Both the position numbers and the translations under genes were made by a program. Below the pieces are notes generated by a model. That model saw only the letters and a program-made list of their open reading frames with translations, was not told the origin of the DNA and searched no databases. This document shows positions 52,235 through 52,300 of a DNA stretch of 64,000 bases, piece by piece; positions within the stretch are counted from its first letter, which is position 1; every line of letters begins with the position of its first letter. The DNA lies in assembly GCF_044324785.1 (NCBI RefSeq), contig NZ_CP172127.1. The stretch is one strand, 5' to 3'. Source of the stretch: Escherichia coli. Lineage in GTDB: Bacteria; Pseudomonadota; Gammaproteobacteria; Enterobacterales; Enterobacteriaceae.

Positions 52235-52300
52235 CTCCACCGTCACACCCGATGGGATTGTTGGGTTTCTCATCGTTAGCTACCGATTCTATATTCCAGA
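52235..52300 (-). repeat. inverted fragment of group II intron 5-prime region
   Basis: Reverse complement of 52235-52300 aligns by eye with intron positions about 49526-49598. Confidence 0.55.

What the first reader, a model, noticed from the sequence alone, without database searches (positions are those of the whole stretch)
52235..52300. Inverted fragment of the intron 5-prime region abutting the IS3 right end
Immediately outside the IS3 terminus the reverse complement aligns by eye with intron positions about 49526-49598, and continues into the IS911-like copy. A shorter trace of the same sequence follows IS911-like copy 1 at about 22616-22630. This implies a second, older intron copy in the IS911-like element that was later disrupted by IS3 insertion or recombination.
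Basis: seen in the sequence. Interest (0 to 1): 0.45.

Follow-up and report, generated by a model that had tools for sequence, protein, structure and literature searches.

The report
Dead group II intron scar beside IS3
The 91 bases just outside the IS3 element are a decayed leftover of a second, older copy of the E. coli group II intron E.c.I4 that once sat in a neighbouring insertion sequence; it is real but ordinary mobile-element debris with no likely function.

Summary
Window 52235-52321 (minus strand) matches positions 32-118 of the resident group II intron (49514-49600) at 90.8% over 87 nt, E = 2.5e-29. The match starts at the first base outside the IS3 right terminus (52234).

The resident intron (49483-51752) is E.c.I4, which is known to home into IS3-family transposase genes. 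The fragment lies in sense orientation within a degenerate ISEc31-like element. Its position fits the canonical E.c.I4 homing site, but a 47-nt deletion has removed the 5' splice junction.

The same deleted junction occurs in the second copy (22012-22615, 100% identical over 604 bp) and on ColV plasmids. All of these therefore descend from one dead IS::intron ancestor.

E. coli SMS-3-5 carries the same island and keeps more of the old intron on the other side of IS3. One of those pieces is catalogued in the literature as the 132-bp fragment E.c.I4-tr2. In this window that remainder, together with ibrA and part of ibrB (3,031 bp), has been deleted flush with the IS3 left terminus.

This is a known kind of relic and of low interest.

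The parts
52235..52325 (-). Relic of an older E.c.I4-family group II intron, covering intron positions ~28-118 (5' part of domain I). It has no 5' splice site, no catalytic domains and no ORF.
   Evidence: 90.8% over 87 nt to 49514-49600, E = 2.5e-29; 83/91 to intact E.c.I4 copies.
52326..52904 (-). Degenerate ISEc31-like IS3-family element (end of orfA and 5' half of orfB, with frameshifts and stops) that hosted the old intron. Together with the first 25 nt of the relic it forms a 604-bp block (52301-52904) that is 100% identical to 22012-22615.
   Evidence: RefSeq annotates it as an IS3 family transposase pseudogene. It is about 80% identical to ISEc31.
52905..52990 (-). Further ISEc31-like orfA/left-end sequence of copy 2, truncated. 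It differs from the IS911-like left end of copy 1 and matches the left side of the pAPEC-O2-ColV element.
48722..49482 (+). IS3 left part: left inverted repeat (TGATCTTACCC...), orfA and the 5' part of orfB up to the intron homing site (...GACATCACGTACT).
49483..51752 (+). Full-length group II intron E.c.I4 (2270 nt, GTGTG...AC). ltrA lies at 50154-51662 and carries W409->TAG at 51378-51380. Domain V/VI lies at 51666-51752.
   Evidence: RF00029, 64 bits. (98.4% to the intact L002 intron; internal stop). (E.c.I4-25 of SMS-3-5, disrupted ORF).
51753..52234 (+). IS3 right part, the 3' exon of the resident intron, ending in the right inverted repeat ...GGTAGGATCA.
48203..48721 (-). ibrB-like gene truncated flush against the IS3 left terminus. 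This is the far endpoint of the 3,031-bp deletion that removed the rest of the old intron (E.c.I4-tr2), other IS fragments and ibrA.
21852..22755 (+). Copy 1, an internally deleted hybrid IS. 21852-22011 is an IS911-like left end. 22012-22590 is the ISEc31-like body. 22591-22615 plus 22616-~22623 is the intron scar (positions 28-52 and 65-~72, with 12 nt missing between). ~22623-22755 is the ISEc31-like right end.

Best explanation
The segment is a non-functional scar of an old E.c.I4-family group II intron. Steps 1 to 5 below are reconstructed from comparisons between genomes and were not observed directly. Their relative order is inferred by parsimony, on the assumption that deletions are irreversible.

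1. The intron retrohomed, in sense orientation, into its canonical target in orfB of an ISEc31-like IS3-family element. That target lies just after the W-x-G-D-I-T-Y codons.
2. A 47-nt deletion then removed the last ~21 nt of the 5' exon and the first ~27 nt of the intron. The deletion is bounded by the short imperfect homology GGTATGG / GGCATGG. It destroyed the 5' splice site.
3. This dead IS::intron diversified into several derivatives. One derivative lost nearly all of the intron and most of orfB; it is the form found on ColV plasmids and as copy 1 here.
4. In another derivative (copy 2), an IS3 element came to lie inside the dead intron at position 118 in inverted orientation. About 212 nt were lost there and no target duplication remains. 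That IS3 itself carries a younger E.c.I4 copy. The arrangement at this stage is the one seen in SMS-3-5.
5. In the lineage of this window, a further 3,031-bp deletion starting exactly at the IS3 left terminus removed the remaining old-intron pieces, ibrA and part of ibrB. This is typical of an IS-end-mediated adjacent deletion.

What remains is 91 nt of domain I. It cannot fold, splice or move.
For: - Homology and significance of the fragment.
- Identity of the resident intron as E.c.I4. It is 98.4% identical to an intact copy and 98.3% to the K-12 fragment E.c.I4-tr1. Coordinates in SMS-3-5 match the published E.c.I4-25.
- E.c.I4 is reported to insert at specific positions in IS629, IS911, ISEc16 and ISEc31 transposase genes (PMC3522654).
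- Collinearity with intact IS::intron junctions apart from a single 47-nt gap.
- The identical junction is present in copy 1 (604 bp at 100%) and in pAPEC-O2-ColV, where there is no IS3 or intron homology within ±5 kb.
- Old-intron pieces lie beyond the IS3 left end in SMS-3-5, in the same orientation and order. One equals the published E.c.I4-tr2, NC_010498 3240307-3240438.
- IS3 flanks are GAC and CTC, so there is no 3-bp duplication.
- The window's ibrB junction lies exactly at the IS3 terminus, with only a GT shared.
- Only one domain V/VI is present in the window.
Against: - No genome shows the state before IS3 arrived, or the state before the 47-nt deletion, for this exact lineage. The order of events is therefore inferred.
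- The short homology at the 47-nt deletion is not statistically exceptional (119 of 2000 shuffles), so the deletion mechanism is a guess.
- The pieces of the old intron differ in affinity. The 5' relic is 91% identical to E.c.I4 and 82% to the L006 intron. The tr2 piece is 83% identical to E.c.I4 and 90% to the L006 intron. This leaves open that the two pieces come from a recombinant intron, or from two different introns.
Confidence: 0.9

Rival explanations
1. The fragment is a recent partial inverted duplication of the resident intron. It would have arisen by aborted retrohoming, by reverse splicing into the IS3 flank, or by template switching during replication. On this view there was never an older independent copy.
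For: The fragment lies only 2.6 kb from the resident intron, in inverted orientation, and abuts the element that carries that intron.
Against: - There are 8 mismatches in 87 nt against the resident copy, whereas E.c.I4 copies differ by about 1.6%.
- The same scar, with the same 47-nt junction deletion and the same variant bases, occurs in copy 1 and on ColV plasmids that have no IS3::intron nearby.
- SMS-3-5 shows further collinear old-intron pieces across IS3.
- Aborted retrohoming leaves 3' parts of an intron, not a 5' part.
Confidence: 0.03
2. The similarity is due to chance or low complexity and has no common ancestry with the intron.
For: None, beyond the short length of the copy 1 trace (40 of 5000 shuffles for 22616-22630 taken alone).
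Against: E = 2.5e-29 within the window. None of 5000 shuffles reached the score. The longest exact run is 24 nt.
Confidence: 0.01
3. The relic is retained because it has a function. One possibility is that read-through transcripts from IS3 orfB into 52235-52321 pair with domain I of the resident intron and modulate splicing or transposase expression. Another is that the 87-nt inverted repeat promotes inversion.
For: The 87-nt, 91%-identical inverted repeat would lie on the same transcript if transcription reads out of IS3. The arrangement is conserved at 100% in many genomes.
Against: - That conservation reflects recent clonal spread of the island. The sequences are 100% identical, so nothing can be said about selection.
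- The resident intron's RT/maturase gene is already broken by a stop codon.
- The surrounding region is pseudogenised IS debris.
- The longest perfect match is 24 nt, which is marginal for RecA-dependent recombination (established knowledge).
- No inverted arrangement was looked for or seen.
Confidence: 0.03

Closest known systems
E.c.I4-tr2 of E. coli SMS-3-5 (Leclercq & Cordaux 2012, PMC3522654, Tables S2/S3: NC_010498 3240307-3240438, 132 bp, 84%, same genomic island as E.c.I4-25)
   Same: It is in the same island, next to the same IS3::E.c.I4-25, and in the same orientation as the relic. The relic studied here is the 5' continuation of that catalogued dead intron copy, on the other side of IS3.
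   Different: The 91-nt piece was not listed in that paper, whose cut-off was 100 bp. In this window the tr2 piece itself has been deleted, so only the 5' piece survives.
E.c.I4-tr1, the ykfC fragment in IS911 of prophage CP4-6, E. coli K-12 (1764 bp)
   Same: It is an E.c.I4 copy in orfB of an IS3-family element at the homologous site, later truncated by another IS (IS5 in K-12). It is a dead relic inside a mobile-element graveyard.
   Different: K-12 keeps an intact 5' exon/intron junction and 1.76 kb of intron at 98-99% identity. Here the junction is deleted, only 91 nt remain, and divergence is about 9%.
Intact IS3-family::E.c.I4 insertions (for example NZ_LR882997 locus L002 with intact ltrA; NZ_LR882059 locus L006)
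   Same: They have the same type of host gene, the same site (after ...GA[TC]AT[TC]ACGTA[TC]N) and the same sense orientation. They serve as the reference for what the ancestor looked like.
   Different: They are full length (2270 nt) with GTGTG at the 5' end, domains V/VI and the ORF. The relic has none of these.

Membership tests
Group II intron, E.c.I4 lineage (applied to the relic 52235-52325) | Nucleotide homology to E.c.I4 RNA domain I | tested here: met
   90.8% over 87 nt to the resident copy, E = 2.5e-29. 83/91 to intact E.c.I4 copies.
Group II intron, E.c.I4 lineage (applied to the relic 52235-52325) | 5' boundary GUGYG and an intact exon/intron junction | tested here: not met
   A 47-nt gap relative to L002, L006 and K-12 removes ~21 nt of exon and intron positions 1-~27.
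Group II intron, E.c.I4 lineage (applied to the relic 52235-52325) | Catalytic domain V/VI and a 3' AY boundary | tested here: not met
   Rfam RF00029 is found only once in the window, at 51666-51752, which belongs to the resident copy. The relic ends at position 118 against IS3.
Group II intron, E.c.I4 lineage (applied to the relic 52235-52325) | Intron-encoded RT/maturase ORF | tested here: not met
   There is no second ltrA homology in the window. SMS-3-5 retains only about 94 nt of the ORF start of the old copy.
Group II intron, E.c.I4 lineage (applied to the relic 52235-52325) | Location at the E.c.I4 homing site in an IS3-family orfB, in sense orientation | tested here: inconclusive
   Orientation is sense. 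The flanks are collinear with canonical insertions if a single 47-nt deletion is assumed. The IBS/EBS target itself is deleted, so the site cannot be read directly.
Group II intron, E.c.I4 (applied to the resident copy 49483-51752) | Full length, GTGTG...AC boundaries, domain V/VI, ltrA, and the homing site in an IS3-family orfB | tested here: met
   2270 nt, 98.4% identical to an intact copy. RF00029 scores 64 bits. It corresponds to the published E.c.I4-25. The ORF is broken by W409*.
IS3 simple transposition event | 3-bp target-site duplication flanking the element | tested here: not met
   The left flank is ...GGGCTGAC and the right flank is CTCCACC.... In SMS-3-5 the left flank is GTATGCG... 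and about 212 nt of the target are missing.
ISEc31-like IS3-family element (host of the relic) | Terminal inverted repeats and orfA/orfB homologous to ISEc31 | tested here: met
   About 80% nucleotide identity to ISEc31 over orfB. The alignment to ISEc31 covers the ends of copy 1. The ORFs are degenerate.

The most novel reading that the evidence does not exclude
The 87-nt inverted copy of intron domain I, placed immediately downstream of IS3 orfB, might act in cis. Read-through RNA would pair with the 5' part of the resident E.c.I4 intron and block its folding or splicing. Alternatively, the inverted repeat might drive inversion of the intron-IS3 segment. Either way a dead intron scar would be regulating a younger copy.
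Probability: 0.03. Interest if true: 0.4.

Novelty: already known. Interest (0 to 1): 0.12.

Why it matters
It matters little beyond annotation. The result shows that this island records two successive waves of E.c.I4-family intron invasion into IS3-family elements. It also illustrates how such copies are erased, through a splice-junction deletion, IS insertion and IS-adjacent deletion.

This fits the published picture of E.c.I4 fragments surviving as inactive relics inside large mobile elements. The 47-nt junction deletion is a convenient marker that links a chromosomal island to ColV-plasmid sequence. It also extends the catalogued fragment E.c.I4-tr2 by a 91-nt 5' piece.

Tried and rejected
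- Chance similarity was rejected on BLAST and shuffle statistics.
- Recent inverted duplication of the resident intron was rejected on divergence, on the shared scar in ColV plasmids, and on the SMS-3-5 comparison.
- I searched for a genome or plasmid with the 47-nt-deleted junction followed by intron beyond position 118, which would be the state before IS3 arrived. A chimeric query found none in 5,426 complete E. coli genomes or 72,556 plasmids. Only loci with intact junctions and a different lineage (88.5%) covered the whole query.
- I searched for the reciprocal junction that a simple IS3 insertion would leave (intron position 119 onward joined to the IS3 left end). No record covered 80% or more of the query.
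- I searched for tr2 outside the IS3 context. All 33 genomes with a match of 99% or better are accounted for by the 33 genomes with the IS3|tr2 junction.
- I tested whether the imperfect repeat between the exon (-47..-22) and the intron 5' end is more than chance. It is not convincing: 119 of 2000 shuffles in L002, and it is absent in the IS911 and IS3 hosts.
- The Rfam scan at gathering thresholds gave no domain I-IV family hit and no second domain V.
- BLAST first suggested a 10-bp microhomology at the 3-kb deletion. Reading the sequences showed that only GT is shared.

Full report
**Context.** The window is a chromosomal island of extraintestinal or avian-type E. coli. The 7 kb around the finding are 100% identical to strain XDL and many others. 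The RefSeq annotation shows a graveyard of IS fragments around iha, sodC, ibrB-like and sitABCD genes.

An IS3 element occupies 48722-52234 on the plus strand. Its orfB is split by a 2270-nt group II intron at 49483-51752, with boundaries GTGTG...AC. Rfam finds a single domain V/VI in the window, at 51666-51752.

The intron is 98.4% identical to an intact copy with an intact ltrA (locus L002). It is 98.3% identical to the K-12 ykfC fragment. Its own ltrA carries W409->TAG at 51378-51380.

Leclercq & Cordaux 2012 (PMC3522654) call this intron E.c.I4. They state that it inserts at specific positions in IS3-like transposase genes (IS629, IS911, ISEc16, ISEc31). Their copy E.c.I4-25 in SMS-3-5, described as having a disrupted ORF, has the coordinates of the homologous intron in that genome.

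**Checking the observation.** The first base after the IS3 right terminus is 52235. From there, the reverse complement matches intron positions 32-118 (49514-49600):
- 79 of 87 bases are identical, with no gaps.
- E = 2.5e-29 within the window, and none of 5000 shuffles reached the score.
- The longest exact run is 24 nt.

A global alignment extends the homology to 52325, which corresponds to intron position 28.

The two "IS911-like" copies share a 604-bp block that is 100% identical (22012-22615 against 52904-52301). The first 25 nt of the intron relic lie inside that block. After 22615, copy 1 lacks 12 nt and then has AATCGGTA(ACT). This matches the relic, including its diagnostic T (AATCGG rather than AACCGG). 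From about 22623 it continues as the right end of an ISEc31-like element.

**What the host element is.** Only the left 160 bp of copy 1 are IS911-like (93%). The body and right end, and all of copy 2, are ISEc31-like, at about 80% over orfB and 86-90% at the right end. ISEc31 is one of the published E.c.I4 hosts.

**The junction.** I aligned three intact IS::intron loci with both copies: L002, L006, and K-12 IS911::E.c.I4-tr1 (L003). The IS exon and the intron relic are collinear with a canonical sense-orientation insertion, except for one 47-nt gap. That gap removes the last ~21 nt of the 5' exon (...TGTGGAGATATTACGTATC) and the first ~27 nt of the intron.

The gap is bounded by GGTATGG in the exon and GGCATGG in the intron. 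This homology is not statistically remarkable, so slippage or illegitimate recombination is an inference only.

The same junction is present on pAPEC-O2-ColV. There the element has a copy-2-type left side and a copy-1-type right side, and there is no IS3 or intron homology within ±5 kb. At least 309 plasmid records cover most of the copy 1 query. All these forms therefore descend from one ancestor that had already lost its 5' splice site.

**The IS3 boundary.** IS3 is flanked by ...GGGCTGAC on the left and CTCCACC... on the right, so there is no 3-bp target duplication.

The decisive comparison is with E. coli SMS-3-5, which carries the same copy 2 and the same IS3::E.c.I4 (99.6% over 5 kb). 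Beyond the IS3 left end it continues with old-intron sequence in the same orientation as the relic:

| Old-intron positions | Identity to E.c.I4 | Identity to L006 intron |
|---|---|---|
| ~330-464 | 82.7% | 90% |
| 483-545 | 81-82.5% | 87.5% |
| 666-759 (start of the RT ORF) | 86-87% | 87.2% |

An unrelated IS fragment is inserted between the first two pieces.

The first piece is exactly the published E.c.I4-tr2: NC_010498 3240307-3240438, 132 bp, described as in the "same strain-specific GI" as E.c.I4-25. The 91-nt relic is therefore the unlisted 5' part of a catalogued dead intron copy. That study discarded hits shorter than 100 bp.

Even in SMS-3-5 about 212 nt (positions 119-~330) are missing at the IS3 site and there is no duplication. 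IS3 is thus not a simple insertion there either. Possible causes are an adjacent deletion or recombination between two IS3 copies, and I cannot tell which.

In this window the 3,031 bp that lie between the IS3 left terminus and the interior of ibrB in SMS-3-5 are absent. The breakpoint is exactly at the IS3 terminus, with only GT shared. This is the signature of an IS-end-mediated adjacent deletion, which is an inference from established IS biology.

**Negative searches.**
- No complete E. coli genome or plasmid has the 47-nt-deleted junction followed by more intron.
- None has the reciprocal junction expected from a simple IS3 insertion.
- The tr2 piece occurs at 99% or better in 33 genomes, matching the 33 genomes that have the IS3|tr2 junction.

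The states before IS3 arrived and before the 47-nt deletion are therefore not sampled. The order of events rests on parsimony.

**Function.** The relic has no 5' splice site, no exon-binding context, no domains II-VI and no ORF. It cannot splice or move. It sits among pseudogenised elements.

The only non-trivial possibility is a cis effect of the 87-nt inverted repeat on the resident intron, through antisense pairing in read-through RNA or through inversion. Nothing supports this. The resident intron's maturase gene is already broken. The 100% identity among genomes reflects recent spread rather than selection.

**Unexplained detail.** The 5' relic is closer to E.c.I4 (91%) than to the L006-type intron (82%). 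The tr2 piece shows the reverse (83% against 90%). The old intron may have been a recombinant between sub-lineages, or the conserved 5' region may simply diverge differently.

**Verdict.** The feature is an already known kind of object: an E.c.I4 fragment in an IS3-family element inside a large mobile element. This very copy is partly catalogued in the literature. Interest is low.

Noticed in passing
window 51378-51380 (within ltrA 50154-51662): The full-length E.c.I4 copy has a TGG->TAG change (W409*) in its RT/maturase gene, plus 8 other amino-acid differences from an intact copy. It is probably immobile on its own. It matches the published 'disrupted ORF' copy E.c.I4-25.
   Followed up: yes
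window 48721|48722 and 48203-48721: The ibrB-like gene is truncated flush with the IS3 left terminus. SMS-3-5 keeps 3,031 bp more here (old-intron pieces, IS fragments, ibrA and the rest of ibrB). The window lineage therefore carries an IS3-adjacent deletion.
   Followed up: yes
window 21852-22755; L009 (pAPEC-O2-ColV) 4985-5872: Copy 1 keeps both IS termini but is internally deleted and is a hybrid (IS911-like left 160 bp, ISEc31-like rest). The ColV-plasmid version has a copy-2-type left side and a copy-1-type right side. These are three mosaics of one ancestor, and the form is widespread on ColV-type plasmids (at least 309 records).
   Followed up: partly
L008 (SMS-3-5) 5080-5211 and window 52235-52325: The pieces of the old intron differ in affinity. 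The 5' relic is 91% identical to E.c.I4 and 82% to the L006 intron. The tr2 piece is 83% identical to E.c.I4 and 90% to the L006 intron. This suggests a recombinant or intermediate intron lineage.
   Followed up: partly
window 38057-38199 (-) and 56660-56781 (-): There are Rfam gathering-threshold hits to the Hfq-binding sRNAs isrN (138 bits) and STnc490 (129 bits) inside this IS-rich island.
   Followed up: no
L002 4248-4322 and homologous junctions: In ISEc31-like hosts the exon segment about 47 nt upstream of the splice site (CCGGAGCCAGACCGGGTATGG) resembles intron positions 6-28 (CCGGAGTTCAGGGCGGGCATGG). The resemblance is not significant by shuffling (p about 0.06) and is absent in the IS3 and IS911 hosts. 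It is the probable substrate of the 47-nt deletion.
   Followed up: yes
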